Source: a virus (Duplodnaviria; Heunggongvirae; Uroviricota; Caudoviricetes). From it: 37,589 nucleotides of DNA. Below are positions 15,533 to 32,796 of the stretch, in pieces. The stretch lies in the IMG/VR virus record IMGVR_UViG_641522623_000002. The stretch is one strand, 5' to 3'. Under the pieces are notes generated by a model that was not told the DNA's origin, made no database searches, and was given only the letters and a program-made list of their open reading frames with translations. The translations under genes and the position numbers were made by a program. The first letter of the stretch is position 1. Every line of letters starts with the position of its first letter.

Positions 15533-16113
15533 ACCGGGCCTCCGGTTGTATCGCCGCCTTTCAGGACGCCAGTATGCTGATGCACATCAACCACGATCCC
15601 GTTAGAACTCATCGCACCGCCGCCCTGGGTAACGCCGCCATTGATCACTACTTCACTATTAATACGCGTGCGGTCAGCCTCCAGCACAAACTCACTGGTT
15701 TTCAGGGTGATATTGTCGGCAGCCTCAATAACCATGGATTTGATGCCCCTGACATACCAGCGCCCGGTGGCGGGTTCGTATTCAAACCAGCCACCGTCAG
15801 GATGTTCTGTCACGCAGGCGTCCGCCGACGTCGACGGTGGTGCGAACTGATTCGAATAGACAGCGGGCAGCGCAAAGGCGGTCTCCAGATTGCCGCCCAG
15901 ACTCAGCAGCACCACCTGCTCACCTTCCGATGGTCGCCACCATGTCCGGGCATTCCCGGCACGCAGGGTCAGCCAGCTGATCCAGTTGGTTTCTAAGTCG
16001 CCTGTTTTCACCCGACAAAGCCAGTTTTCCCTGTCCACTTCGGTGACTACACCAGTGCGGATCAGGTTGGTGATAAGGCGCATGATTTCGGTCAGTTGTG
16101 TATTCATTTCCAA
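15529..16113 (-). CDS. Baseplate spike/hub protein gpV
   Basis: 194 aa; the N-terminus resembles P2 gpV from the second Met (MNTQLTEIMRL...), so the true start may be 16107. Confidence 0.82.
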   Translation of the reverse strand: MEMNTQLTEIMRLITNLIRTGVVTEVDRENWLCRVKTGDLETNWISWLTLRAGNARTWWRPSEGEQVVLLSLGGNLETAFALPAVYSNQFAPPSTSADACVTEHPDGGWFEYEPATGRWYVRGIKSMVIEAADNITLKTSEFVLEADRTRINSEVVINGGVTQGGGAMSSNGIVVDVHQHTGVLKGGDTTGGPV

Positions 16114-16153
16114 ATTATCAAACAGAACAAAGACTAATTCATCTATTTAGAAT

Positions 16154-16171
16154 TGTAAGAGATTTGGCACA
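16154..16171 (-). promoter_or_regulatory. Candidate Ogr/B activator site (TGT-N12-ACA) of the V-operon late promoter
   Basis: tgtaagagatttggcaca 40-58 bp upstream of the V start codon. Confidence 0.35.
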
Positions 16172-16204
16172 ATGATAATTTAAAGAAAGAATGACAACTT
16201 TAAA

Positions 16205-16233
16205 TAAAAACGCCCTATTAAAGGGCGTTTTTA
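16205..16233 (-). terminator. Rho-independent terminator downstream of the cargo NTPase gene (bidirectional shape)
   Basis: aaaaa-cgccct-atta-agggcg-ttttt; stem 16211-16216 / 16222-16227 flanked by A and T runs. Confidence 0.7.
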
Positions 16234-17745
16234 TTATTGCCTAAGTTTAGGCTTGATAATTCCTAGTGCATCCCACAAACCACAGTGTATTTCAAAATTC
16301 AACGTTGGGTCCATTTCTAAATCTTCATCATTAAATGACCACAAATAAACATCTCCGCCATCTGTTTTAGATCTCCTGAGTACATTCCCGATAGCACCGA
16401 CTTTAAATAAACAACTCAGTATTTTATTAAGCGTTAATGTACCATCTCCTAACTTCAATTCTTCAAATTTTTCCTTGATTAAATGTGGAGTGAAACCTCT
16501 TTTTTTTAATGAACGTAAAAGAGAAAAACTGTCATCTATTTCTGAATCACTTAAATGTCCCGCAAGCTCAGATCTAATTTCACGTAAAAGATAAGATGAG
16601 TATTTTTTAGAAATCTTTGTAAACATGGAACTTTCAAATCTTTCAGTATTTTCTCCATATTCATCTTGAATATAAGTTAGCATCCTAACGGCATCTCTTG
16701 GGCGACCTAGAGTTCTATGTAAAATATAAATAGAGCTATGCTCACCTGCAACTCTCTCAGTGAAAATTTTCCCGAACAAATTAGAACCATTTAAATCATT
16801 ATAATAATCAGTGGAGTTTTTGATCTTAAAAGCAATCATATCAAAAATCTCAGAATCACTTGCTCGTTCTCCAGCAGAACACCAATCAAGTGTAACAGAG
16901 TTATCTTCAATGATTTTATTAATATTCGGCGATGAAAAAGTATTTATTATATCATGACGAATAACTGCACCAATTTTAGCATCTATTTTATTTTGCATTA
17001 GAGTTTTATTAATTGACACAACAGCATTTAAAAAACTTATCATTGCATTTTTATATTCAACTGTTGCATCAAACTTATCATCTAACTCATCATAAAATAC
17101 ATATATTTTTTTATTACTCTCTTTTAGCATGTCAACAATAAAACACTGCAAAGATTCCATACATTCCAAATAATTCTTTTTTGTTTCTTTTGTTTTCTCG
17201 ACCTCACCATCTTTTGCTTTGGCTTCACCACGTAATACTGGGAATCTAAATCCGATACCAACCTCACCCGACGCTTGGTACTCCCTAGTTATTTCAACTG
17301 TTTGCTCAGGCCTTAACTCGCCCGCGACATGGCCAAAAGAACGTAAAAAACTTTCCAAATGAACTATTTTATCCTCACTAAATCCTTTTTTATTACTTAC
17401 AATATTCTTAGCAAGATTGACCAATATCATCCACTTGAAAATTGGTACATATTTTGTGGAAGACACATCCTGCCCCTGAAAGTGAGTAAGTTCATGAAAA
17501 ACAAAATCTTTTAATGATTCCACAACTGCAATATAATTATTTTTTCGCTTGGCGTTACAGTAGACATTAACAAGCAATGTCTTACCCGTCCCCTTCCTGC
17601 CAATTACGAGCATTTTATTTTTTCTATCAAGTTTACTTAATGAATTATTTATATCATAAAAATATTTCGAGTAATTATCGAGAAATAATACCTCATTCTC
17701 TCCATAAACCTCACCAAATTCAAAATCACCAATTTTGGGGCGCAT
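16234..17745 (-). CDS. AT-rich cargo gene: P-loop NTPase of unassigned family (candidate anti-phage defence protein)
   Basis: 503 aa; Walker A GRKGTGKT (aa 49-56, encoded about 17578-17601); Walker-B-like IYVFYDELDD; GRPRD sensor/arginine-finger-like motif; codon usage and base composition are visibly AT-rich compared with the flanking S and V genes; own terminator. Confidence 0.75.
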   Translation of the reverse strand: MRPKIGDFEFGEVYGENEVLFLDNYSKYFYDINNSLSKLDRKNKMLVIGRKGTGKTLLVNVYCNAKRKNNYIAVVESLKDFVFHELTHFQGQDVSSTKYVPIFKWMILVNLAKNIVSNKKGFSEDKIVHLESFLRSFGHVAGELRPEQTVEITREYQASGEVGIGFRFPVLRGEAKAKDGEVEKTKETKKNYLECMESLQCFIVDMLKESNKKIYVFYDELDDKFDATVEYKNAMISFLNAVVSINKTLMQNKIDAKIGAVIRHDIINTFSSPNINKIIEDNSVTLDWCSAGERASDSEIFDMIAFKIKNSTDYYNDLNGSNLFGKIFTERVAGEHSSIYILHRTLGRPRDAVRMLTYIQDEYGENTERFESSMFTKISKKYSSYLLREIRSELAGHLSDSEIDDSFSLLRSLKKRGFTPHLIKEKFEELKLGDGTLTLNKILSCLFKVGAIGNVLRRSKTDGGDVYLWSFNDEDLEMDPTLNFEIHCGLWDALGIIKPKLRQ

Positions 17746-17832
17746 AACATCCTATCCTTAAGAAAATCATATCATTATAACAAATGCTTTTATATATAGC
17801 AGATTTTATATTTTCATTGAAGTAAAATAAAC

Positions 17833-18297
17833 TCACTTATGCAACCCTCCCTTTTCCTGTAACCAACTGATTAATGTGTAAAATATAAAACTTTGTTCTT
17901 TTTCAGCAATGCCTAACAAACGACGCTCTGCATAACGGACCTCCGGTCCTTTTCGACTGACGCGATCACGCAGGCCGTAATGGTGAACGCAGGCGATGCG
18001 CTGCACCTTACCTTCAAACTGTACGCTGGCAGAATCCGCGCTGGCGGCGGTTTTCAGGTATTTTGTGGTGCGAAGTTTTGTAAACATCTGCCGTTTGATG
18101 CGGCCTTTTTTACTGCGTGCTGTTACTCGCCTCGGTTCATAGCTGCTGCCATCAGGATTGCGTTGCATCCTGATATTCTGCTGCTGTGTCCGGCGCAGTT
18201 CCTGCGCCAGCTGGCGCATCATGCGGCTTCTGGCGGCTGGTTCCAGATTTGCCAGCAAGGCACTCAGCCAGTCGTCCACTTTCTGCAATTCAGCCAC
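17833..18297 (-). CDS. Tail completion protein gpS
   Basis: 154 aa downstream of R; P2 order R-S. Confidence 0.8.
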   Translation of the reverse strand: MAELQKVDDWLSALLANLEPAARSRMMRQLAQELRRTQQQNIRMQRNPDGSSYEPRRVTARSKKGRIKRQMFTKLRTTKYLKTAASADSASVQFEGKVQRIACVHHYGLRDRVSRKGPEVRYAERRLLGIAEKEQSFIFYTLISWLQEKGGLHK

Positions 18298-23424: not shown

Positions 23425-25191
23425 ATGAACACCACACTGACACCCGCAGATCTCGATCCCCGTCGGCAGGCCATGCTGCTGTACTTTCAGGGATACCGCG
23501 TAGCCCGCATAGCTGAAATGCTGGGCGAGAAAGTTGCAACCGTTCACAGCTGGAAAAAACGCGACAAGTGGGGTGACTATGGGCCGCTGGATCAGATGCA
23601 GCTCACCACCACCGCACGCTACTGCCAGCTCATCATGAAGGAGCACAAAGAAGGGAAAGATTTCAAAGAGATTGACCTGCTGGCGCGCCAGTCGGAGCGC
23701 CACGCGCGGATCGGCAAGTTTAACAATGGCGGCAACGAAGCCGACTTAAACCCTAACGTCGCCAACCGCAACAAAGGCCCACGCCGTCAGCCGGAAAAGA
23801 ATGTTTTCACCGATGAGCAGATTGAGAAGCTGGAAGAAATCTTCCATTCCTCCATGTTCAACTACCAGCGCCACTGGTGGGAAGCCGGAAAAACCAACCG
23901 CATCCGCAACCTGCTGAAGTCACGCCAGATCGGCGCGACCTTTTACTTTGCCCGTGAAGCCCTGATTGACGCCCTGCTTACCGGGCGTAACCAGATTTTC
24001 CTTTCCGCCAGTAAGGCACAGGCTCACGTTTTTAAGCAGTACATCATCGACTTCGCCAAAGAAGTCGAGGTGGAGCTGAAAGGCGATCCGATGGTGCTTC
24101 CTAACGGAGCCACGCTTTACTTCCTCGGCACCAATGCCCGCACGGCCCAGAGTTACCACGGCAACCTGTATCTGGATGAATATTTCTGGATACCGAAATT
24201 CCAGGAACTGCGCAAAGTGGCTTCCGGTATGGCTATTCACAAAAAATGGCGACAAACCTATTTTTCCACGCCATCCAGCCTGACACACAGTGCTTATCCG
24301 TTCTGGTCCGGTGCGCTGTTCAACCGTGGGCGCAACAAAGCCGATAAGGTGGACATCGACCTGTCCCACAGCAATCTGGCCCCCGGCCTGCTGTGCGCAG
24401 ACGGGCAATACCGCCAGATAGTCACCGTGGAAGATGCAGTGCGCGGCGGATGTAACCTTTTCGACCTTGACCAGTTGCGCATGGAGTACAGCCCGGACGA
24501 ATACCAGAACCTGCTGATGTGCGAGTTTGTGGACGATCTCGCGTCCGTGTTTCCGCTCAGCGAGCTGCAGGCGTGCATGGTGGACAGCTGGGAAGTCTGG
24601 ACCGACTTTCATGCACTGGCTCTGCGCCCGTTTGGCTGGCGCGAAGTGTGGATCGGTTATGACCCGGCAAAAGGTACGCAAAACGGCGACAGCGCCGGAT
24701 GCGTGGTGGTGGCACCGCCAGCCGTGCCGGGCGGTAAGTTCCGCATTCTTGAGCGTCACCAGTGGCGCGGGATGGACTTCCGCGCCCAGGCTGACGCCAT
24801 CAAAAAACTGACCGAACAGTACAACGTGACCTATATCGGTATCGACTCGACCGGCGTTGGTCACGGGGTTTATGAGAACGTGAAAGCGTTCTTTCCTGCC
24901 GTCCGGGAGTTTGTCTACAACCCCAACGTTAAAAACGCCCTGGTACTCAAGGCCTACGACATTATCAGCCACCGCCGTCTGGAGTTTGACGCCGGGCACA
25001 CCGACATTGCGCAGTCATTCATGGCTATCCGTCGCGCCACCACCGCCAGCGGCAACCGCCCGACCTATGAAGCCAGCCGCAGCGAAGAAGCCAGCCACGC
25101 CGATCTGGCCTGGGCAACAATGCACGCACTGTTTAACGAACCGCTGCAGGGCGAGTCCGCCAATACCAGCAATATTGTGGAGATTTTTTGA
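23425..25191 (+). CDS. Terminase ATPase (large) subunit gpP
   Basis: 588 aa, divergent from O and followed by Q with an ATGA overlap. Confidence 0.88.
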   Translation: MNTTLTPADLDPRRQAMLLYFQGYRVARIAEMLGEKVATVHSWKKRDKWGDYGPLDQMQLTTTARYCQLIMKEHKEGKDFKEIDLLARQSERHARIGKFNNGGNEADLNPNVANRNKGPRRQPEKNVFTDEQIEKLEEIFHSSMFNYQRHWWEAGKTNRIRNLLKSRQIGATFYFAREALIDALLTGRNQIFLSASKAQAHVFKQYIIDFAKEVEVELKGDPMVLPNGATLYFLGTNARTAQSYHGNLYLDEYFWIPKFQELRKVASGMAIHKKWRQTYFSTPSSLTHSAYPFWSGALFNRGRNKADKVDIDLSHSNLAPGLLCADGQYRQIVTVEDAVRGGCNLFDLDQLRMEYSPDEYQNLLMCEFVDDLASVFPLSELQACMVDSWEVWTDFHALALRPFGWREVWIGYDPAKGTQNGDSAGCVVVAPPAVPGGKFRILERHQWRGMDFRAQADAIKKLTEQYNVTYIGIDSTGVGHGVYENVKAFFPAVREFVYNPNVKNALVLKAYDIISHRRLEFDAGHTDIAQSFMAIRRATTASGNRPTYEASRSEEASHADLAWATMHALFNEPLQGESANTSNIVEIF

Positions 25192-26216
25192 TGGGAAAGA
25201 GTAAGAAGAACCGCACTGCGGCGACGAAACAGATCCAGCTTAAAAGTCAAACTACAGCCGAAGCATTCAGCTTCGGCGATCCCGTTCCTGTTCTGGACCG
25301 CCGAGAACTGCTGGATTATGTGGAATGCGTACAGATGGACCGCTGGTATGAGCCGCCCGTCAGCTTTGACGGACTGGCGCGCACCTTCCGCGCTGCCGTG
25401 CATCATAGTTCCCCGATTGCAGTAAAGTGCAACATTCTGACCAGCACCTACATCCCTCACCCGCTGCTCAGCCAGCAGGCTTTTTCGCGTTTTGTGCAGG
25501 ACTATCTGGTATTTGGTAACGCCTACCTGGAGAAACGCACGAACCGCTTCGGTGAAGTTATCGCCCTTGAACCTGCCCTGGCAAAATACACCCGACGCGG
25601 GTTAGACCTGGATACCTACTGGTTTGTGCAATACGGTATGACCACGCAGCCATATCAGTTCACGAAAGGCAGCATCTTTCATCTGATGGAACCGGACATC
25701 AACCAGGAGATCTACGGCCTGCCCGGTTATCTTTCTGCCATTCCGTCAGCCCTGCTCAACGAGTCCGCCACGCTGTTCCGCCGAAAGTATTACATTAACG
25801 GCAGTCATGCTGGCTTCATCATGTACATGACCGATGCTGCGCAGAACCAGGAGGATGTGAACAACCTCCGCAACGCAATGAAAAGCGCCAAAGGTCCAGG
25901 CAACTTCCGCAACCTGTTTATGTACTCACCTAACGGCAAAAAGGATGGTCTTCAGATTATCCCGTTGTCAGAAGTCGCGGCAAAGGATGAATTTCTGAAC
26001 ATCAAGAACGTGAGCCGGGATGACATGATGGCGGCACACCGCGTGCCTCCGCAAATGATGGGTATCATGCCGAATAATGTTGGCGGGTTTGGGGATGTGG
26101 AGAAGGCATCCACGGTTTTTGTACGTAATGAATTAAAGCCTCTTCAACAACGAATTAGAGAGGTGAACAATTGGCTACATGATGACGTAATAAAATTCCA
26201 AGATTACTCCTTGTAA
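25188..26216 (+). CDS. Portal protein gpQ (3' end apparently replaced by AT-rich sequence)
   Basis: 342 aa; the last ~30 codons are markedly AT-rich, unlike the rest of the gene. Confidence 0.85.
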   Translation: MMGKSKKNRTAATKQIQLKSQTTAEAFSFGDPVPVLDRRELLDYVECVQMDRWYEPPVSFDGLARTFRAAVHHSSPIAVKCNILTSTYIPHPLLSQQAFSRFVQDYLVFGNAYLEKRTNRFGEVIALEPALAKYTRRGLDLDTYWFVQYGMTTQPYQFTKGSIFHLMEPDINQEIYGLPGYLSAIPSALLNESATLFRRKYYINGSHAGFIMYMTDAAQNQEDVNNLRNAMKSAKGPGNFRNLFMYSPNGKKDGLQIIPLSEVAAKDEFLNIKNVSRDDMMAAHRVPPQMMGIMPNNVGGFGDVEKASTVFVRNELKPLQQRIREVNNWLHDDVIKFQDYSL

Positions 26217-26220
26217 TTAA

Positions 26221-26256
26221 AGCCTCTTCTTTAGAAACCCATCCAAAGAAGAGGCT
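26221..26256. terminator. Bidirectional terminator between convergent Q and the cargo operon
   Basis: agcctcttcttt (26221-26232) pairs with aaagaagaggct (26245-26256); flanked by A/T runs. Confidence 0.7.
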
Positions 26257-26268
26257 TATTGCCACCCG

Positions 26269-26586
26269 TTATATACCACATACAAAATTGATCTTAACGC
26301 TTTTATCAACAACAAGCAGAGAAGTGCCAACAGACTTAATAAATCCCAGTTCATACTCTTCTGAATGCGTCATTGTAATAATATGAACAGGAACAAATAA
26401 ATCAAGCTCCCGCAGCTTTCGCTTCAATAATAAACCATCGACACAATCACCTATCACAAGCATATCAATATCATTTGCATCGCAAAAACTCTTTAATGCT
26501 GACCCAAATACATATACATCCACCATATATAAACTATGATGGATAATAACATCACAGATCGATTCAATCGTATGTTTAAAATTCAC
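26269..26586 (-). CDS. Minimal nucleotidyltransferase (Pol-beta superfamily, MNT-like), third gene of the cargo operon
   Basis: 105 aa; GS-x9-DxD motif (VYVFGSALKSFCDANDIDMLVIG); 1-nt overlap with the upstream gene; AT-rich. Confidence 0.7.
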   Translation of the reverse strand: MNFKHTIESICDVIIHHSLYMVDVYVFGSALKSFCDANDIDMLVIGDCVDGLLLKRKLRELDLFVPVHIITMTHSEEYELGFIKSVGTSLLVVDKSVKINFVCGI

Positions 26587-27245
26587 TACCGTGAAATTCT
26601 TCGTAATAAATCACCCAACTTGTAAAGCTCCACCCCGATACTTTGAGCAGCCTCTTTTGCCTGAGTCGTCAATCGTCCATTAGGATTGGAGGAAAAAACA
26701 ACATCACAATTGCCATGCAACCCTATCGCATCTCTTACAGAACCCGCTGTCATATCATAATCATTCGCAGCGATAATAACTAAGTCCGCCAAGCCACGTC
26801 TTTTAAGTCTATATTTTTTGTTGGTTTCTCGCTCTACAGAGCTTACATGTGAATGTTGATTGAACACTCTATTTATAAACAAATGCTCTTTATCAAGATG
26901 CTCAAGCGGATTATTAGCTCTTAAGGAAGATGCAATATGCCCAAATGAACCCACTCCTATTTTCTTTTGTTCTAGTAATCTCATTGCATCACCAGAGATA
27001 AATTCAACACCTCCCTTGACTGATAGAAAATCAATTTTTTTATTGTCTAGGTATTCATTTATCTCAGGACATGTTATCCGGCCAGTATTGATTGCCCCGA
27101 TCAAATAGGTGTCACCCTGTGTAGTATTAATCACTAAAGTACCATCATCTATCACCTCTATATTTTCGACACATTTATTTTCTTGTAATTTTCCTGCCAT
27201 CCATGAAATATAGCCTTCACTCGCATTTATGCTCATTGGATTCAT
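26586..27245 (-). CDS. Hypothetical protein, middle gene of the cargo operon (possible HEPN-like Rx4H motif)
   Basis: 219 aa; translationally coupled on both sides; contains RVFNQH; no confident family assignment from sequence alone. Confidence 0.6.
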   Translation of the reverse strand: MNPMSINASEGYISWMAGKLQENKCVENIEVIDDGTLVINTTQGDTYLIGAINTGRITCPEINEYLDNKKIDFLSVKGGVEFISGDAMRLLEQKKIGVGSFGHIASSLRANNPLEHLDKEHLFINRVFNQHSHVSSVERETNKKYRLKRRGLADLVIIAANDYDMTAGSVRDAIGLHGNCDVVFSSNPNGRLTTQAKEAAQSIGVELYKLGDLLRRISR

Positions 27246-27937
27246 CCTATAAATAGTTCAGATGCAGCTTCTGGAAACCTACTACCATTAGCATCGGTTA
27301 AGCCCAAATGTTTTGATTCAAAGTCATCTATATGAACACAAAGCTTTGAAAAAACATTCTTCTCATCTTCACTCATGAGGTGATAGTTTTGTTCAACCAG
27401 TCGCTGTACTTTTCTATTGTTGGGTAAGATATGAGATTGTACTTTTCTTAACCATACTTCTGCATTTGGATTTTCAGGGTCAACGCTGTTCTCTTGGGTT
27501 GGTCCATATGTTACAAAAATGGTATTGTTTTCTCTGAAGTATTTTTCTAACTCCTGTCTAACAGATTCTCGATTGTCATATGTTTTAACACCAAAGGTTG
27601 CATTTATTTTATCAATATGGCCGTTTTTCCAAGAACGGATAATTTCATCAGTAAAATGTTCCTCTGCCTTATCAATTGTCGTATGGCAATTAGCACATAG
27701 AAGAATAATGTTGTCAAAATGACCTCTCTGCTCATCAGTTAGATCAGCATTGGTTCTAGGTCCATTATCAATGGCACTAAAAATGTGAGCAAGTTCTCCA
27801 ATTGTTATATTTTTGTCGCCAGCATCAACAAACAAAGGTTGCAAGCATTGTGGATTTTGGCAAAAGCCACCTGAGCTGGCAAAAAGCCGTCTAACTGTAT
27901 TAGCGTTTGGAGAAGCTTTTCCCCTACTGCAAGCCAT
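27242..27937 (-). CDS. HNH-motif nuclease-like protein, first gene of the cargo operon
   Basis: 231 aa; CQNPQC...GELAHI...NIILLCANCHTTID (Cys pair, His, Asn, C-x2-CH) typical of HNH/His-Me finger nucleases; AAGG ribosome-binding site upstream. Confidence 0.7.
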   Translation of the reverse strand: MACSRGKASPNANTVRRLFASSGGFCQNPQCLQPLFVDAGDKNITIGELAHIFSAIDNGPRTNADLTDEQRGHFDNIILLCANCHTTIDKAEEHFTDEIIRSWKNGHIDKINATFGVKTYDNRESVRQELEKYFRENNTIFVTYGPTQENSVDPENPNAEVWLRKVQSHILPNNRKVQRLVEQNYHLMSEDEKNVFSKLCVHIDDFESKHLGLTDANGSRFPEAASELFIG

Positions 27938-28009
27938 GAACTAACCTTAAAAGTATAGAAATTAGGATGTTAATTTATTACTGAACAACCCTATAAGCAA
28001 GCTTGCTAA

Positions 28010-28070
28010 TTGTGGTGAGCGCGCGCTCGTATCCCCGCCACGCCTGCCCGCTTTATGTAGTGGTTTTTAT
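28010..28070. other. Putative cos site (terminase cleavage / cohesive-end region)
   Basis: The minus strand reads GGCGTGGCGGGGATACGAG (28026-28044), matching the recalled start of P2/186 cohesive ends (GGCGTGGCGGGGA...); lies between the Tum operon side and Q as in P2/186. Confidence 0.5.
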
Positions 28071-28217: not shown

Positions 28218-28895
28218 CTAGAACGTGACAGCCTTGTCAAAGCCAGAAATAATTGTATAAGAAATAGACGAGTTATCAGCCTTGTTCACTTTGAACTTGG
28301 CACCTTTGTAAGCGATAACATCACTTCCCTTAGAATCTACAGAAAAATCTGTTGTAAATGCTGCACGAGCCATATCGTTTGCAAATTCACGATAGGTGAA
28401 CTTCATTACACCGCCTGCATTTCCATTGTATTCGATAGTCTTAACCAATGAATTACTCACTCGACACAGCCCATCAGGAACACGTTTGATAGAAATTTCT
28501 GATGCAGTATAAGAAGTGCCATTTGGCGGTGATATCTCATTTTTTGCAGCATCGTAACTAACATAATCAACATAGTTACCGATTTGCCCATAGAGATTTT
28601 TTAACGCAACAGCTTGAGGGTTATGATAATTGCGGTAAATTCCATTCCCCTCACTGCAATATGTACCAGCAGCGATAGAAGACAATGCACCATTAGCCGC
28701 ACCAAGTTCTAGTACGTCCGTTTTAAATCCAGTAGCAGATGTGATAATGGGATCGCCCATGTAGGCGGTAGCACTTTGCCCAATAGCTGGCTTCACCACT
28801 TCAATAGCAGTGATATTTCGGTTAGAAGCATGTGGCACGCAACCAGTTAGGATTACAGCAAGAGATATTGGTAACGCTACATTATTAATTTTCAT
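28218..28895 (-). CDS. AT-rich cargo gene: predicted lipoprotein of unknown function
   Basis: Signal peptide MKINNVALPISLAVILTGC with lipobox LTGC; about 225 aa from this Met (the ORF track extends to 28949); AT-rich; between the Tum operon and cos. Confidence 0.65.
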   Translation of the reverse strand: MKINNVALPISLAVILTGCVPHASNRNITAIEVVKPAIGQSATAYMGDPIITSATGFKTDVLELGAANGALSSIAAGTYCSEGNGIYRNYHNPQAVALKNLYGQIGNYVDYVSYDAAKNEISPPNGTSYTASEISIKRVPDGLCRVSNSLVKTIEYNGNAGGVMKFTYREFANDMARAAFTTDFSVDSKGSDVIAYKGAKFKVNKADNSSISYTIISGFDKAVTF

Positions 28896-29008
28896 TTTTA
28901 GCCTATTATTCTTTTCTTGACAAAAAACAAGGCGATATCTGATTGACATCGCCTCTCACTCATATGTAACCCTTTTTGATTAGTAAAAACAAGCGTCTAT
29001 TGACAAAA

Positions 29009-29242
29009 TCAATGCAGCCAGCTGTCGTCTTCCCACACCTTCTGCAAAATTTTCATCACTTGTTTTCTTTCTTCGTCCAGTTGCAGTCCGGTCAGTTCCA
29101 CACCGTTAGAGCTACCTTTACGGATACGGATTACCGTTTTGGGATACAGGGGGCGCAGATTGCGGTAAAGCTCGGATTCAAGGGCGTCCAGGGTAGACTG
29201 GCTAATCTTCTGCTCTTTATCGATCATTATTTCAATGCGCAT
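29009..29242 (-). CDS. DinI-family protein
   Basis: 77 aa from MRIEIMIDK...; resembles E. coli DinI (MRIEVTIAK...) and has the acidic C-terminus WEDDSWLH; GAGGTGA ribosome-binding site; second gene of the LexA-box operon. Confidence 0.7.
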   Translation of the reverse strand: MRIEIMIDKEQKISQSTLDALESELYRNLRPLYPKTVIRIRKGSSNGVELTGLQLDEERKQVMKILQKVWEDDSWLH

Positions 29243-29252
29243 AAAAGTCACC

Positions 29253-29441
29253 TCAGCTGATGACATCCATTGAGCGGTTGTATTCGTGGCTTCTGATTTT
29301 TGCCATGAGTTCATCTGTCAGTTCAGAAACCCACTGCAAAGCCAGCCCCTTCTCTTCATCACTACACTCACTAGCCGCTACAAGCTTAAGAAAAAAATCA
29401 ATGCGCTGGAGCTTCAAAGACTCCAAAAAATAGTCCTGCAT
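29253..29441 (-). CDS. Small protein, first gene of the SOS-regulated operon (possible Tum-like antirepressor module)
   Basis: 62 aa with a strong AGGAGG ribosome-binding site; LexA box about 45 bp upstream; function inferred from position only. Confidence 0.5.
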   Translation of the reverse strand: MQDYFLESLKLQRIDFFLKLVAASECSDEEKGLALQWVSELTDELMAKIRSHEYNRSMDVIS

Positions 29442-29593: not shown

Positions 29594-31966
29594 TTAATAC
29601 AGGTTCCGCCACTTATCATCTTCCCGCAAACGTTGGTTCCGATAGAAGATACGCAGGCCTGCTCCTGACGGAATACTGCCGCCGCGAAGCAGTAAATCGA
29701 CCTCTTTCTCGCTGCCATCAAATCCCCTGGACTTCAGTTCATACACGAGCTGCTGTCGCTGATGATCTGTAATTCGCTGTTTGTAGTCTTTACGCCGTTT
29801 CGGTTTCACCAGGCGTAACCTTGCTGCCAGTTCCCGGCGCTCTTTTTTGTTCATACTGTGCAGGTAATCGTGCAACTCCTTGTCATCCATGCGGGTGATA
29901 TCCGTTCTGGTATCTCCATCAGCTGATTTGTCTTTCGCTTGTTGGTACAAATTTTCAGCAAGGGGACAGTTATTGCCACGAGTCCAAGGGGTGCAAGCGC
30001 CCTGGTCGGCTGCCGCCTCCTGAACATCAACGGCCTTACGAACCATTTTCCACTTCACGGCATGAGTGCAGATCTTGCCCTCTGCAATAGGTGACCAGAT
30101 GCCATAAATACGAATGCCGTGATCGCCATAGGCGGTCGGCTCTTCGTTGATTTCATAAGCGGTTCTGATGAGGTGATATTTGCGGGGAACCAGTACGCCG
30201 CCCTGCTTCATGATGTAGGTGGCAAAACAACCAGCATCAGCAGCAGCCAGGATGGCATCAAGGTGCGGGTTATCCAGTACCGGCGCACCTGCTTTTTTGT
30301 CCCCCTGTTGCCTTGCCGCCTGACCAGCCAGCAATCGCAGTTCACGGTAAGCCTGACGCCCCGGAATGCCAAAGAAGCGGAATTGCTGAACACGATGCAG
30401 AGACGCCCAGGCATTAACGTATTCAGCATTATCACGCAGGGATTTCCCCGTTTCCTTGCTGATCTCGCCAGCCAGACCACGCCCGTCAATGTTCTTACTG
30501 ATGTATTTCGCGATGTAGCTTGTTGGCGTACCTTTGCGCGGGTTAATCAACTCAGACTTAAAGCGCGGCCCAGTGTTATTGCCCAGTTCCTCGCGGTCTT
30601 CACGGATGGCAAACTTACGCAGTAATGCAGTGATGGCGCGGCGGTCTTTTTTGCGCATAAAACACAACAGGTGCCAGTGAACTGTACCGTCATGATGCGG
30701 CTCAGCCACCCGCACGCCATACCACCGCAATCCGGCTTTGTGCATCGCCTTACGAAATGCAGCAAACATGCCGACCAGATAATCACTGCTTTGTCTTACC
30801 GTCGCATTTGTCCAAGTTGGGTTGGGCCTGCCATTATTTAGCGTGGAATGGAAACGTGACGGACAGGTGATGGTGTAGAAAACGGCGCAGTCACCGCGCA
30901 TTTCCGCGATAAGCTCCAGGCCTTTAACACAGGCCATCATCTCATTGCGGCGATGCGCAGGGTTGCTGCTGCTGGCGTTTACCACATCCTCCATGTCCAG
31001 CGTGTCGCCGTCTTCGTTCACCAGTTCATGAGAACGAAAAAACTCCAGCGACTTACGGCGCTGCTCACGTTTATGCATCACGGCTTCATAGCTGACATAG
31101 GGAGATGCTTTTTTGCTGACCAGGCAGACAGCACGCAACTGCTCTTCCCGCCATTCGCAACGCATCTTCCATAATTTCCGGTACCACCAGTCAGCGCACA
31201 ACATACGCGCCAGCGAACCCGGAATGAGTTCATAGGGCACGGGTTTACGGCGGTTTCTTTTCCGGCGGAGTTGCTCAAACGCAGGCGGGATGACATCCAG
31301 ACGTAGGGTTTCCGCTGCCACCTTTTCCCATGTCTTGCGGATTTCTTCTGGCTTAACGTCATCGGTGACATACAAATCGCCACAAGCTGCATCAAGGCAC
31401 ATGCTCATATGCGCAGCTACCAGGGTGGACAGGCGTTTCACCTGATCCTGACTCATTTCAGGCAGGATCAGCAGGCCGTCCAGCCCTTCATGGCTTGCCA
31501 TAAAGCGAAAAGAAGTGGATAGCTGACAGTCGCGTACATGCTCCAGCCGTTCCAGACATGGCTTAATCGTCTCACGCAAATAGCGGGAATAAGCCTTTGG
31601 CCTGCCCAGGCTGCTGAAGTATTCAATACGTTGCATCAGCGGCTTGCTGATATGGGAAGGCTGGGCATTGACGTCCGCCAGAATGACCATATCTGGATTA
31701 AAACGCTGCTGCTCATGCGCCAGCTTTGCCCGACTAATGAGCTTATCCTGCTCCATTTCGCGCTGGACAGGATCACGGGATTCATTAAAGAAATAACGCT
31801 CCCAGACCTGATCACTCAGTGCTTCGCGGCGCAGCTGTTCCTGCTCGTTATCGGCAGCGTACAGAGCGATCAGGTTTGAAAGCGCAGAAACTGAAGATTG
31901 CTCTTCTGTCTCTACGTAAGGATTGATTGCTTTTTTCTCAGCATTCCAGGAATAGCTGTAGTTCAT
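29594..31966 (-). CDS. Replication initiation protein gpA (rolling-circle nickase)
   Basis: Large ORF in the P2 gene A position. Start chosen at the Met whose ATG overlaps the upstream stop (TAATG) and has a GGAG ribosome-binding site; the ORF track extends to 32017. Confidence 0.8.
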
Positions 31967-32796
31967 TACGCAATCTCCAGTTCGAGCTGTGAAGGCTGCA
32001 AACCATTCGACAGCCAATCAGAAACTGAAGGTGGGCGAACAGCTTCAATTGCACCTTTTAAAATTGCGCAACGGTTTTTCAGAATGACAGCTTTCAGCTC
32101 CTTTTCCGTCAGATTGCGCGAATATTCAGCCTCCTGAATAGCCCGCGTCAGCTCAGGATATTTGCTATTAAATTTGGGGACATTGCAGGCAAGATTTGTA
32201 CTGTCGGCAGTCGCCAGTGGGTAATTTCCCAACACACGACCGTCAAGCATGCGCAAACCATGAACAGCTGTTTTGAAATTGTGTCGGCAATAAATTGCTT
32301 CAAAAGCGTCCTGCATACGACGATGCCAGTGCGCAGTTCTGATAGCCGCATATTCACCAGACGATCCAAAGCAGACACGAGGCCATTCACGACATAGCTC
32401 GATAAGCCGATCGATTGACTCGTGCAGATGCCAGACGGGAGTTGCCTTCCCGTAGAACATTTTCGGAACTTCGTTTATCAGGGCATCATTGTCACGTTCA
32501 CCTCCGTCCACAACATCAGGAATGACAAAAAAAGCGACCTTAGGATGGTGGTAATAGTTCAGGAGCCATTTATAAAAATCACTCCAGTTAATTTTTAGCC
32601 CACGCACCCATGCAGAAAATGCGCCGTTATCAATGCCGACGACCTGAGCGTGCTGAATGGACGCCGCAATCTGATCTGGTCGTACATAGGAGACGAAAGC
32701 GCCAGCTCCGCTCACCGCAATACGATGAACGTCGCCAGCACTTCCCCAGACAGGCGTCCCATGGAAATGATGAATTCCGTGGTGCATTTCTTTCAC
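31966..32796 (-). CDS. Hypothetical protein, translationally coupled between the Dam methylase and gene A
   Basis: 276 aa; His-rich N-terminus; no family recognised from sequence alone. Confidence 0.6.

What the first reader, a model, noticed from the sequence alone, without database searches (positions are those of the whole stretch)
26217..28010. Three-gene AT-rich cargo operon (HNH-motif protein, unknown 219-aa protein, minimal nucleotidyltransferase) between portal gene Q and cos
Three translationally coupled minus-strand genes (27937-27242, 27245-26586, 26586-26269) sit between Q and the cos-like site, a position where P2-family phages carry variable cargo. Their base composition is visibly AT-rich against the phage backbone. 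Gene 1 has an HNH/His-Me-finger signature (CQNPQC...LLCANCHTTID). Gene 3 is a ~100-aa Pol-beta-type nucleotidyltransferase (GS-x9-DxD), the size class of MNT antitoxins. Gene 2 contains an Rx4H (RVFNQH) motif that could be HEPN-like. I cannot match this combination to a named defence system from memory, so it is a candidate novel anti-phage or toxin-antitoxin module.
Basis: partly seen in the sequence, partly recalled or inferred. Interest (0 to 1): 0.85.

Follow-up and report, generated by a model that had tools for sequence, protein, structure and literature searches.

The report
Conserved three-gene HNH defence candidate
A P2-like prophage of E. coli ATCC 8739 carries, in a known "defence cargo" slot next to its packaging site, an untested and unnamed three-gene cassette (a Cap5-type DNA-cutting enzyme, a new double nuclease-fold protein that lacks the usual catalytic residues, and a minimal nucleotidyltransferase). 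The cassette is conserved as a unit in at least 13 bacterial phyla and is most likely a new nuclease-based anti-phage system.

Summary
**Observation: confirmed.** Three tightly packed minus-strand genes lie between portal gene Q and a cos-like site. The DNA has 36-40% GC against a 55-60% backbone.
- Gene 1: 27937-27242.
- Gene 2: 27236/27245-26586.
- Gene 3: 26586-26269.

**What the proteins are.**
- Gene 1 is a Cap5/SPARHA-type HNH nuclease fused to a conserved four-helix bundle.
- Gene 3 is a minimal nucleotidyltransferase (MNT) with intact GS/DxD residues.
- Gene 2 is not HEPN. A confident model (pLDDT 93) shows two tandem restriction-endonuclease-fold domains that arose by internal duplication. 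They lack the D..(D/E)xK triad but keep Q130, H131, R149, Y163 and R171.

**Main new result.** The trio is not an enterobacterial oddity. All 87 intact loci out of 91 examined, from at least 13 phyla, carry all three genes in the same order. The genes usually overlap and they co-evolve (r about 0.83-0.85).

**Context.** The cassette moves between P2 prophages, P4 satellites, lambdoid prophages, plasmids and defence islands. In E. coli, 1,289 genomes share the flanks but only 14 carry this cargo.

**Status.** It is absent from PADLOC 2.0 and has no Pfam family for gene 2. It is listed as "hypothetical" in the P2-hotspot catalogue. DefensePredictor flags it as a predicted novel defence gene, but it was never tested.

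**Verdict.** A genuine, unnamed candidate defence system. The mechanism is inferred: a DNase effector held in check or licensed by nucleotidyl transfer.

The parts
27242..27937 (-). Gene 1 (231 aa; WP_000752436.1): Cap5-type HNH nuclease plus C-terminal four-helix bundle
   Evidence: ORF and RefSeq call. Member of a large full-length family, 44-100% identical across phyla. AF2 model has pLDDT 83.
27593..27937 (-). Gene 1 residues 1-115: zinc-finger HNH (beta-beta-alpha-Me) nuclease domain with a complete catalytic set (H51, N76, H85; Cys26/31/81/84)
27245..27592 (-). Gene 1 residues 116-231: conserved up-down helical bundle of unknown function (invariant R123, E155, W162, H202, H210; N173, N184, E192 at 98% or more)
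26586..27236 (-). Gene 2 (216 aa from the conserved start; 219 aa if 27245 is used; WP_012304892.1): tandem pair of restriction-endonuclease-fold domains without the canonical catalytic triad
26589..26909 (-). Gene 2 C-terminal repeat (residues 113-219), carrying the conserved polar cluster Q130, H131, R149, Y163, R171. This is a candidate ligand, phosphate or nucleic-acid binding site, or a modification site.
   Evidence: Frequencies: Q130, H131 and R171 in 80/80; Y163 in 79/80; R149 in 72/80; R126 in 61/80.
26269..26586 (-). Gene 3 (105 aa; GTG start; WP_001009569.1): minimal Pol-beta-type nucleotidyltransferase (MNT)
   Evidence: 62 of 76 orthologs hit Pfam NTP_transf_2. Family profile against PDB: AF0614 1.6e-5, 2rff 1.1e-4, HI0073 7e-4, MntA 5yep 4e-3. 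F27, G28, S29, D39, D41 and E76 are 98-100% conserved.
26220..26257 (.). 16-bp GC-rich hairpin between the convergent ends of Q and gene 3. Candidate bidirectional terminator.
   Evidence: RNA fold -28.4 kcal/mol; z = -7.25; 0 of 200 shuffles fold as well.
27938..28025 (-). 88-nt AT-rich leader and putative promoter region between cos and gene 1 (TATACT -10-like hexamer, AAGG ribosome-binding site)
   Evidence: Read from the sequence. The consensus scan found no strong sigma-70 site, and the count did not exceed shuffles, so this is inferred only.
28026..28044 (-). cos-like 19-mer GGCGTGGCGGGGATACGAG, marking the phage packaging site that bounds the cargo slot
   Evidence: Sequence. Near-identical cos-proximal sequence appears in the P2-like prophage clone pFR109 and in P4-like clones. 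The flank is shared by 1,289 E. coli genomes.
25188..26216 (+). Portal gene Q (flanking backbone gene; other boundary of the slot)
   Evidence: ORF. RefSeq 'phage portal protein'.

Best explanation
The operon is a self-contained, horizontally mobile three-component conflict system. It is most likely an anti-phage, abortive-infection-type defence, carried as swappable cargo in the cos-proximal hotspot of a P2-like prophage.

**Shown**
- Gene 1 encodes a nuclease of the immune-effector HNH clade (Cap5 / SPARHA / Shedu N-terminus) with a complete active site, fused to a conserved helical bundle.
- Gene 2 encodes a pseudo-dimeric pair of restriction-endonuclease-fold domains. It has lost the metal-binding D..(D/E)xK triad but keeps an invariant Q-H / R / Y / R cluster.
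- Gene 3 encodes a ~100-aa minimal nucleotidyltransferase with intact catalytic residues.
- The three genes are always together, in the same order, usually overlapping, and they co-evolve.

**Inferred mechanism**
- The three proteins form one complex.
- Gene 2 is the non-catalytic sensor or DNA-binding (or ligand-binding) subunit.
- Gene 1 is the effector that degrades DNA once activated.
- Gene 3 is the safety switch. By analogy with MntA in HepT-MntA type VII toxin-antitoxin systems, it covalently nucleotidylylates (AMPylates) a partner. Candidates are the invariant Tyr163 of gene 2 and the helical bundle of gene 1. This keeps the nuclease silent until infection disturbs the modification or the complex.

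**Likelihoods**
- It is a defence or conflict module: about 0.7-0.75.
- The HNH is the toxic effector: about 0.6.
- The MNT acts by covalent modification of a partner protein: about 0.3-0.35.
For: **1. Location**
- The operon sits between gpQ and cos, inside the gpA-gpQ hotspot that Rousset et al. showed to hold anti-phage systems.
- 1,289 of 5,426 E. coli genomes share the flanks but only 14 share this cargo.
- Other genomes carry AIPR, DUF262, PIN, DUF4145 or P-loop NTPase genes in the same slot.

**2. The same trio recurs in other hotspots**
- P4-like satellites in Pantoea, beside a type I R-M system or OLD/UvrD (Gabija-like) genes.
- A Cronobacter lambdoid prophage, beside a DUF4238 gene, a family validated as defensive.
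- A Pseudomonas prophage.
- A Chromobacterium island with LmuB-type and nSTAND3/Mrr genes.
- A Phaeobacter conjugative plasmid, directly beside an annotated Shedu nuclease.
- Among 135 nearest neighbours in other phyla: integrases, transposases, LmuB, GajA, AriA/Ptu-type ATPases and Mrr.

**3. Unit character**
- The trio is present in 86/91 loci by HMM, plus L053 by inspection.
- The exceptions are three contig ends and one disrupted copy.
- The modal gene 2 to gene 3 overlap is 4 nt.
- Mirror-tree r is 0.83-0.85, with 0/999 permutations reaching it.

**4. Effector identity**
- Sequence and structure evidence.
- Cap5 degrades DNA when activated (PMC8568899 abstract).
- SPARHA HNH effectors act in immunity (PMC12738770 abstract).

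**5. MNT identity and catalytic conservation**
-.
- MntA neutralises its toxin by AMPylation (PMC7641770 and PMC11586414 abstracts).

**6. Independent prediction**
- DefensePredictor lists WP_000752436.1 as a 'Predicted novel defense gene', score about 5.96 against their strict cut-off of 4.
Against: - No experiment exists. There is no phage-protection, toxicity or modification data for any member.
- Immediate neighbours in many environmental genomes are ordinary housekeeping genes (ETF, beta-lactamase, ABC transporters, sigma factors). I could not compute a formal defence-island enrichment score.
- No deposited phage genome (50,697 records) carries gene 2.
- The gene order, with the MNT last, differs from canonical toxin-antitoxin operons.
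- No partner has a HEPN fold, which is the only experimentally known MNT target.
- The complex and the modified residue are pure inference. I could not run multimer prediction or inspect model coordinates.
- Gene 2's conserved H/R/Y cluster could itself be a metal-independent catalytic site. That would make gene 2, rather than gene 1, the toxin.
Confidence: 0.5

Rival explanations
1. Restriction-like direct defence. Gene 2 is a DNA reader (for example of modified, branched or end structures) that recruits the gene 1 HNH to cut foreign DNA, as in McrA-type or type IV enzymes. The MNT is an accessory, for example marking or regulating. The result is not abortive infection.
For: - Gene 2's fold is that of DNA-binding restriction-endonuclease-like domains, arranged as a pseudo-dimer.
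- Other cargo in the same slot includes DUF262 (GmrSD-like) genes.
Against: - The closest relatives of the HNH are signal- or assembly-activated indiscriminate effectors (Cap5, SPARHA), not sequence- or modification-specific enzymes.
- This does not explain an invariably present, catalytically intact MNT.
- No methyltransferase or other self-protection partner is conserved.
Confidence: 0.15
2. A toxin-antitoxin addiction module (a type VII-like variant) whose role is to stabilise the mobile element, not to defend. The toxin is the HNH DNase, or alternatively gene 2 acting as a metal-independent nuclease through H131, R149, Y163 and R171. The MNT is the enzymatic antitoxin.
For: - The MNT is the hallmark antitoxin of HepT-MntA systems.
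- The trio is found on prophages, satellites and plasmids.
- Gene 3 is never lost from intact loci, as expected for an antitoxin.
- An R-x4-H string and an invariant Tyr exist in gene 2.
Against: - Three genes rather than two.
- No HEPN fold.
- The MNT is encoded last.
- The cassette occupies slots where cargo is rapidly swapped for defence genes, not plasmid-maintenance positions.
- Many toxin-antitoxin systems also defend, so this rival overlaps the main explanation.
Confidence: 0.15
3. A minimal signalling system of the CBASS or Hailong type. The MNT synthesises a nucleotide or oligonucleotide signal. This signal is bound by gene 2 (at the Q-H/R/Y/R pocket) or by the helical bundle of gene 1, and it switches the Cap5-type HNH on or off.
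For: - The HNH is the Cap5 effector type.
- NTase-made oligonucleotide signals control Hailong (described).
Against: - Gene 3 is only ~100 aa. It has no CD-NTase/SMODS hit and lacks the C-terminal domain of CD-NTases. HalB matches only at E = 0.4.
- Neither partner has a CARF, SAVED or STING sensor fold. The similarity to Can2 and Card1 lies in their nuclease-fold domain, not the sensor.
- I know of no minimal MNT that makes second messengers (own knowledge).
Confidence: 0.1
4. An ordinary phage function: a packaging-associated HNH (HK97 gp74-like helper of terminase at cos) or a free-standing homing endonuclease with two passengers.
For: - In P2-like prophages the HNH gene lies about 90 nt from cos and next to the portal and terminase genes.
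- There are weak PHROG hits to phage HNH endonucleases (1e-3).
Against: - Only 14 of 1,289 E. coli genomes with these flanks have it.
- The same trio sits in the early region of a lambdoid prophage, in satellites, on plasmids and in chromosomal islands of many phyla, far from any terminase.
- The best matches are immune effectors, 20 orders of magnitude better than the phage HNH families.
- No deposited phage genome has gene 2.
Confidence: 0.03

Closest known systems
HepT-MntA (HEPN-MNT) type VII toxin-antitoxin systems
   Same: - Contains a ~100-aa minimal Pol-beta nucleotidyltransferase with GS...DxD. Its family profile hits HI0073 and MntA (5yep).
- Tightly coupled to a putative nucleic-acid-targeting toxin on mobile elements.
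- Plausibly shares the same logic of enzymatic neutralisation.
   Different: - No HEPN domain anywhere. Gene 2 is alpha/beta restriction-endonuclease-fold, and the gene 1 C-terminal domain is a generic four-helix bundle without a conserved Rx4-6H.
- Three genes rather than two.
- The MNT is encoded last.
- The predicted toxin is a DNase (HNH), not an RNase.
CBASS Cap5 (HNH-SAVED effector)
   Different: - No SAVED domain.
- The NTase is a 105-aa MNT, not a CD-NTase.
- No Cap2, Cap3 or other CBASS accessories.
- There is an extra restriction-endonuclease-fold protein.
SPARHA (short Argonaute + HNH-APAZ) effectors, PDB 9om4
   Same: Best sequence match of the gene 1 HNH domain among solved structures (E 1.7e-9). 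It is an HNH used as an assembly-activated immune effector.
   Different: No Argonaute or APAZ domain. The partner proteins are unrelated.
PADLOC candidate system PDC-M68
   Same: Best PADLOC model for gene 1 (PDC-M68A, E 2.3e-29).
   Different: The match covers only the HNH part (model positions 8-110 of 253). The gene 1 C-terminal domain, gene 2 (123 family members scanned) and gene 3 match no PDC model.
Rst_3HP ('hp+hp+hp') from the same P2 hotspot (Rousset et al. 2022)
   Same: A three-gene system of 'hypothetical proteins' in the gpA-gpQ hotspot of P2-like prophages.
   Different: Its proteins, each far longer than genes 1-3 here, are unrelated in length and sequence. None of the tested constructs contains these proteins.
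PD-(D/E)xK-fold proteins with two nuclease-like or sensor-plus-nuclease domains (VC1899/Can2/Card1, NucS, AF1548 Mrr-like)
   Different: - No sequence similarity.
- No CARF domain.
- The canonical acidic/lysine triad is absent.
- A different conserved cluster is present instead (Q130, H131, R149, Y163, R171).

Membership tests
P2-like cos-proximal (gpA-gpQ) defence-hotspot cargo | Variable genes located between replication gene A and portal gene Q, adjacent to cos, in a P2-like prophage | tested here: met
   Q is at 25188-26216, cos-like site at 28026-28044, A at 29594-32017. Hotspot definition. The locus is listed in that paper's Table S5A as hypothetical proteins. Flanks are shared by 1,289 genomes, cargo by 14.
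HNH (beta-beta-alpha-Me) nucleases, Cap5-type immune-effector clade | Catalytic His, Asn and metal-ligand His, plus the zinc-binding Cys pairs, in a Cap5-like fold | tested here: met
CBASS | CD-NTase (SMODS-type, about 300+ aa) signal synthase | tested here: not met
   Gene 3 is 105 aa. Only NTP_transf_2/Polbeta hits; no SMODS or CD-NTase hit in Pfam or PADLOC.
CBASS | Effector carrying a cyclic-nucleotide sensor domain (SAVED, STING, etc.) | tested here: not met
   The gene 1 C-terminal domain is a four-helix bundle. The Cap5 alignment stops after the HNH domain.
HepT-MntA type VII toxin-antitoxin | MNT antitoxin with GSx9-13DxD | tested here: met
   G28-S29-x9-D39-x-D41 conserved. Profile hits to HI0073, AF0614 and MntA.
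HepT-MntA type VII toxin-antitoxin | HEPN toxin: all-alpha fold with conserved Rx4-6H | tested here: not met
   The gene 2 model is alpha/beta restriction-endonuclease-fold. R126 is present in only 76-81% of orthologs. No HEPN hit for any protein in Pfam or PDB.
HepT-MntA type VII toxin-antitoxin | Toxin neutralised by covalent AMPylation | not testable with these tools
   Requires mass spectrometry or radiolabel assays.
PD-(D/E)xK nuclease superfamily (gene 2) | alpha-beta-beta-beta-alpha-beta core fold | tested here: met
PD-(D/E)xK nuclease superfamily (gene 2) | Conserved catalytic D ... (D/E)xK residues | tested here: not met
   No conserved acidic/Lys triad in 80-123 orthologs. The conserved set is Q130, H131, R149, Y163 and R171.
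PADLOC PDC-M68 | Full-length match of both component models | tested here: not met
   The A model matches only the HNH part. There are no hits for genes 2 or 3.
Rst_3HP | Homology to the three proteins of pFR109 | tested here: not met
   The sequences and lengths differ. Peptide strings from this operon are absent from all tested constructs.
Shedu | SduA DUF4263 nuclease domain | tested here: not met
   The SduA model aligns only over the N-terminal HNH accessory region (model positions 19-125 of 326). There is no DUF4263 hit in Pfam.
Experimentally validated anti-phage defence system | Protection against phage when expressed | not testable with these tools
   - No paper cites the accessions.
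- The operon is not among the systems tested in PMC9122126.
- It is not in the tested tables of PMC13092281.
- None of the tested systems described in the text of PMC13586616 resembles it; that paper's supplementary sequences were not searched.

The most novel reading that the evidence does not exclude
The trio defines a new class of immune system. A minimal nucleotidyltransferase covalently nucleotidylylates a non-HEPN partner, either the invariant Tyr163 pocket of a pseudo-dimeric, catalytically dead restriction-endonuclease-fold sensor or the helical bundle of the nuclease. This gates a Cap5-type HNH DNase. The AMPylation-based type VII toxin-antitoxin logic would thereby extend to DNA-degrading abortive infection, in a system spread over at least 13 phyla.
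Probability: 0.25. Interest if true: 0.8.

Novelty: new variant of a known kind. Interest (0 to 1): 0.62.

Why it matters
If the cassette protects against phage, it adds a compact (about 1.7 kb), phylogenetically very broad defence system. Two of its three parts, the gene 2 family and the helical domain of gene 1, have no Pfam, PADLOC or solved-structure relatives.

It would also give the abundant 'minimal nucleotidyltransferase' fold a second partner class besides HEPN. That makes a specific question testable: is enzymatic nucleotidylylation a general way of keeping immune nucleases silent?

There are two practical gains.
- Current defence annotators miss the system entirely.
- Gene callers often miss gene 3 in GC-rich genomes.

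The residues to mutate and the constructs to build are defined here. The native host strain, ATCC 8739, is a standard laboratory strain.

Tried and rejected
1. **'Gene 3 is an enterobacterial add-on to a two-gene core.'** Gene-caller tables for distant loci suggested this, and I recorded it as such. It was rejected after six-frame HMM searches found a gene 3 ortholog directly after gene 2 in 86/91 loci, and in L053 by eye.

2. **Identity with Rst_3HP.** This is the validated three-'hypothetical' system of the same hotspot. Rejected by reading its sequences and by a peptide search of all tested constructs.

3. **HEPN reading of gene 2.** Rejected on fold and on incomplete conservation of R126.

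5. **Active PD-(D/E)xK nuclease reading of gene 2.** The motif is absent.

6. **Searches that found nothing.**
   - No paper cites the accessions or PDC-M68.
   - No match in the phage collection at DNA or protein level.
   - No Rfam family in the locus.
   - No convincing sigma-70 promoter from the simple scan.

7. **Things I could not do.**
   - The structure tool rejected an alignment containing locus-derived sequences.

8. **Neighbour analysis gives only family counts**. It is not a formal enrichment statistic.
Full report
**1. Observation**

The window is the E. coli ATCC 8739 chromosome (100% identity to NC_010468.1) and holds a P2-like prophage.

- **ORFs.** The three minus-strand ORFs exist as described: 27242-27937 (231 aa), 26586-27245 (219 aa) and 26269-26586 (105 aa, GTG start). 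RefSeq annotates all three as 'hypothetical protein' and starts gene 2 at 27236. That methionine is the conserved one in the family, so gene 2 is most likely 216 aa.
- **Junctions.** They are compact: ATGA overlap or a 5-nt gap, then a TAGTG overlap.
- **Composition.** GC is 0.36-0.40, against 0.55-0.59 for the adjacent terminase and portal genes.
- **3' end.** A 16-bp hairpin at 26220-26257 separates the convergent ends of Q and gene 3 (-28.4 kcal/mol, z = -7.25).
- **5' end.** About 90 nt upstream of gene 1 lies a cos-like 19-mer (28026-28044). It is almost identical to the cos region in P2-like and P4-like clones of Rousset et al..
- **Signals.** No Rfam family is present. No strong consensus promoter was found.

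**2. The slot is a cargo hotspot**

Rousset et al. 2022 (PMC9122126) defined the cos-proximal gpA-gpQ region of P2-like phages as a hotspot of anti-phage systems. A 3.2-kb query spanning the locus matches 1,289 of 5,426 complete E. coli genomes through its flanks. Only 14 contain the cassette. In the others, the same slot between the portal gene and cos holds AIPR-family, DUF262, PIN, DUF4145 or P-loop NTPase genes.

**3. Gene 1**

*HNH domain (residues about 8-123).*
- They match PADLOC models of CBASS HNH effectors (E 1e-22), SAVED-HNH, the N-terminus of some Shedu SduA proteins (1e-13), and the first ~100 positions of candidate PDC-M68A (2e-29).
- Among solved structures, the best sequence matches are the SPARHA HNH effector 9om4 (1.7e-9) and Cap5 (5e-7).
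- H51, N76, H85 and the four zinc cysteines are invariant in 85 orthologs.

*C-terminal domain (residues about 116-231).*
- They form an up-down helical bundle with its own invariant polar residues: R123, E155, W162, H202 and H210. W103 and K104, also invariant, lie in the linker helix just upstream.

**4. Gene 3**

- On its own it hits NTP_transf_2 and Polbeta only below threshold.
- However, 62 of 76 orthologs hit NTP_transf_2.
- The family profile finds the ~100-aa minimal nucleotidyltransferases AF0614 (1.6e-5), 2rff, HI0073 and the MntA antitoxin 5yep (4e-3).
- F27, G28, S29, D39, D41 and E76 are 98-100% conserved.
- It is therefore a catalytically competent MNT.

**5. Gene 2**

- No Pfam, PADLOC, NCBIfam, PHROG or PDB sequence match, even when 123 family members are scanned.
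- The word-indexed search saw only 12 clusters. An exhaustive profile search found 289 representative clusters, nearly all 210-225 aa.
- The AlphaFold2 model is very confident (pLDDT 93, pTM 0.86) and shows two tandem alpha-beta-beta-beta-alpha-beta-alpha-beta units.
- The two halves are homologous to each other (HHalign 98.8%, E 7e-17), so the protein is a pseudo-dimer.
- The canonical acidic/lysine triad is not conserved. Instead Q130, H131 and R171 are at 100%, Y163 at 99% and R149 at 90%.
The HEPN suggestion therefore fails on fold and partly on motif.

**6. The trio is an ancient unit**

- **Gene 1 family.** Full-length ~231-aa homologs (44-54% identity) occur in many phyla.
- **Breadth.** A scan of one genome per species found 376 relatives among 185,579 species. 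They span Pseudomonadota, Bacteroidota, Acidobacteriota, Actinomycetota, Chloroflexota, Cyanobacteriota, Gemmatimonadota, Nitrospirota, Omnitrophota, Planctomycetota, Spirochaetota, Bacillota and Calditrichota.
- **A correction.** Gene-caller tables at first suggested that distant loci lacked gene 3. Six-frame HMM searches overturned this. In 86 of 91 loci, an ORF matching the gene 3 profile follows a gene 2 homolog, which follows gene 1, all on the same strand.
- **The exceptions.** L053 also has gene 3. The rest are three contig ends and one copy (L056) whose gene 2 is truncated by a 658-aa ORF.
- **Coupling.** Median lengths are 231, 216 and 99 aa. The modal gene 2 to gene 3 junction is a 4-nt overlap.
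- **Co-evolution.** Pairwise identities of the three genes correlate at r = 0.83-0.85, with 0/999 permutations reaching that value. This reflects co-inheritance and is compatible with physical interaction, but does not prove it.
- **Relative conservation.** Gene 1 is far more conserved (median 47% identity) than genes 2 and 3 (about 27-28%).

**7. Contexts**

The same trio occurs in:
- P2-like prophages, in the same slot.
- P4-like satellites of Pantoea, beside a type I R-M system or OLD/UvrD genes.
- A Cronobacter lambdoid prophage, between replication genes and RusA/Q and next to a DUF4238 gene. DUF4238 was validated as defensive.
- A Pseudomonas prophage.
- A Chromobacterium island with LmuB-type and nSTAND3/Mrr genes.
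- Nine plasmids, including a Phaeobacter conjugative plasmid where it abuts an annotated Shedu nuclease.

The nearest large neighbours in 70 other loci are heterogeneous. They include integrases, transposases, LmuB, GajA, AriA/Ptu-like ATPases and Mrr, but also housekeeping genes. No fourth gene is conserved. No deposited phage genome carries gene 2.

**8. Prior knowledge**

- No paper in the library cites the three accessions or PDC-M68.
- Rousset et al. list the locus as 'hypothetical + hypothetical...' and did not test it. Their 'hp+hp+hp' system is unrelated.
- The 2026 survey of P2/P4 hotspots describes new systems (Crouga, Bandua, Aernus, Toga, Reve, Hailong). None has this architecture.
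- DefensePredictor lists gene 1 (WP_000752436.1) as a 'Predicted novel defense gene', score about 5.96. The accessions are absent from its tables of cloned units, S6-S8, which are stored in full.
- The system is therefore predicted, catalogued, unnamed and untested.

**9. Mechanism**

*Shown:*
- A complete Cap5-type HNH active site.
- A complete MNT active site.
- A non-canonical tandem restriction-endonuclease-fold protein.
- Obligate co-occurrence of the three genes.

*Established background:*
- Cap5 degrades DNA once activated (PMC8568899).
- SPARHA HNH effectors are activated on invader recognition (PMC12738770).
- MntA neutralises its HEPN toxin by AMPylation (PMC7641770 and PMC11586414).

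*Inference:*
- The three proteins act as one complex.
- The HNH is the effector.
- The pseudo-dimeric gene 2 protein senses or binds nucleic acid or a ligand.
- The MNT nucleotidylylates a partner to hold the nuclease in check.
- Infection relieves this and DNA is degraded.

*Rivals:*
- A type IV-like direct restriction complex.
- A pure addiction module, possibly with gene 2 as a metal-independent toxin.
- A minimal signalling system.
- A phage packaging or homing HNH, which the distribution largely excludes.

**10. Verdict**

It is an unnamed, conserved three-gene candidate defence system built from one known effector type, one known regulator type and one new protein family. I file it as a new variant of known nuclease/NTase conflict systems, not as a member of CBASS, HepT-MntA, PDC-M68, Shedu or Rst_3HP, because each fails a defining feature tested here. 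Function and mechanism need experiments, and the residues and constructs to use are specified.

Noticed in passing
window 16234-17745 (minus strand); AT-rich block 16001-18000: A second AT-rich island (GC 0.31-0.36) holds a single 503-aa ORF with a Walker A motif (GRKGTGKT), inserted between tail/baseplate-region genes. It has no PADLOC hit and only a sub-threshold P-loop Pfam hit. It is possibly a second cargo or defence slot of this prophage.
   Followed up: partly
window 28218-29441 (minus strand): On the other side of cos, between cos and replication gene A, lie three ORFs. One is a 243-aa ORF (phrog_1353, unknown function, lipoprotein-like 'LTGC' N-terminus; RefSeq starts it later, at 225 aa). 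The others are a DinI-family gene (29009-29314) and a 62-aa phrog_698 gene. These look like common P2-group accessory genes rather than part of the trio.
   Followed up: partly
L009, L010, L011 and many GC-rich loci (e.g. L053 1511-1801): Public gene calls frequently miss or truncate the ~100-aa nucleotidyltransferase gene that overlaps the end of gene 2. Annotation-based surveys would therefore wrongly score the system as a two-gene module.
   Followed up: yes
window 27908-27937 (gene 1 residues 1-10): The N-terminal tail of gene 1 (M-x-C-x-R-G-x-A-S-P) is strongly conserved: C3 96%, G6 97%, P10 98%. Yet it is predicted disordered (pLDDT below 50 for residues 1-7). It is a candidate docking peptide or modification site.
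   Followed up: no
E. coli genomes matched (e.g. H25-H32): Other P2-like prophages carry AIPR-family, DUF262, PIN, DUF4145 or P-loop NTPase genes specifically between the portal gene and cos. This means the short Q-to-cos segment is itself a cargo slot, distinct from the cos-to-A side where P2 keeps old/tin.
   Followed up: partly
L004/L005 (Pantoea ananatis) and L006-L008 (Cronobacter): - In Pantoea, near-identical copies of the trio sit in P4-like satellites next to different neighbours: a type I R-M system in L004, and HNH_2 + OLD-family + UvrD genes in L005.
- In Cronobacter, the trio sits in a lambdoid prophage next to DUF4238 and T5orf172 genes.
- Together these show cassette shuffling between element types.
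   Followed up: partly
L056 4700-7322: One copy of the system has gene 2 truncated at its C-terminus and gene 3 replaced by a 658-aa ORF. It looks like an insertion event, a rare inactivated copy.
   Followed up: no
L020 1052-1939: A second, weaker HNH-domain ORF (E 1e-5 to the gene 1 profile) lies about 2 kb upstream of the trio in Rubrivivax. It is possibly another HNH effector in the same island.
   Followed up: no
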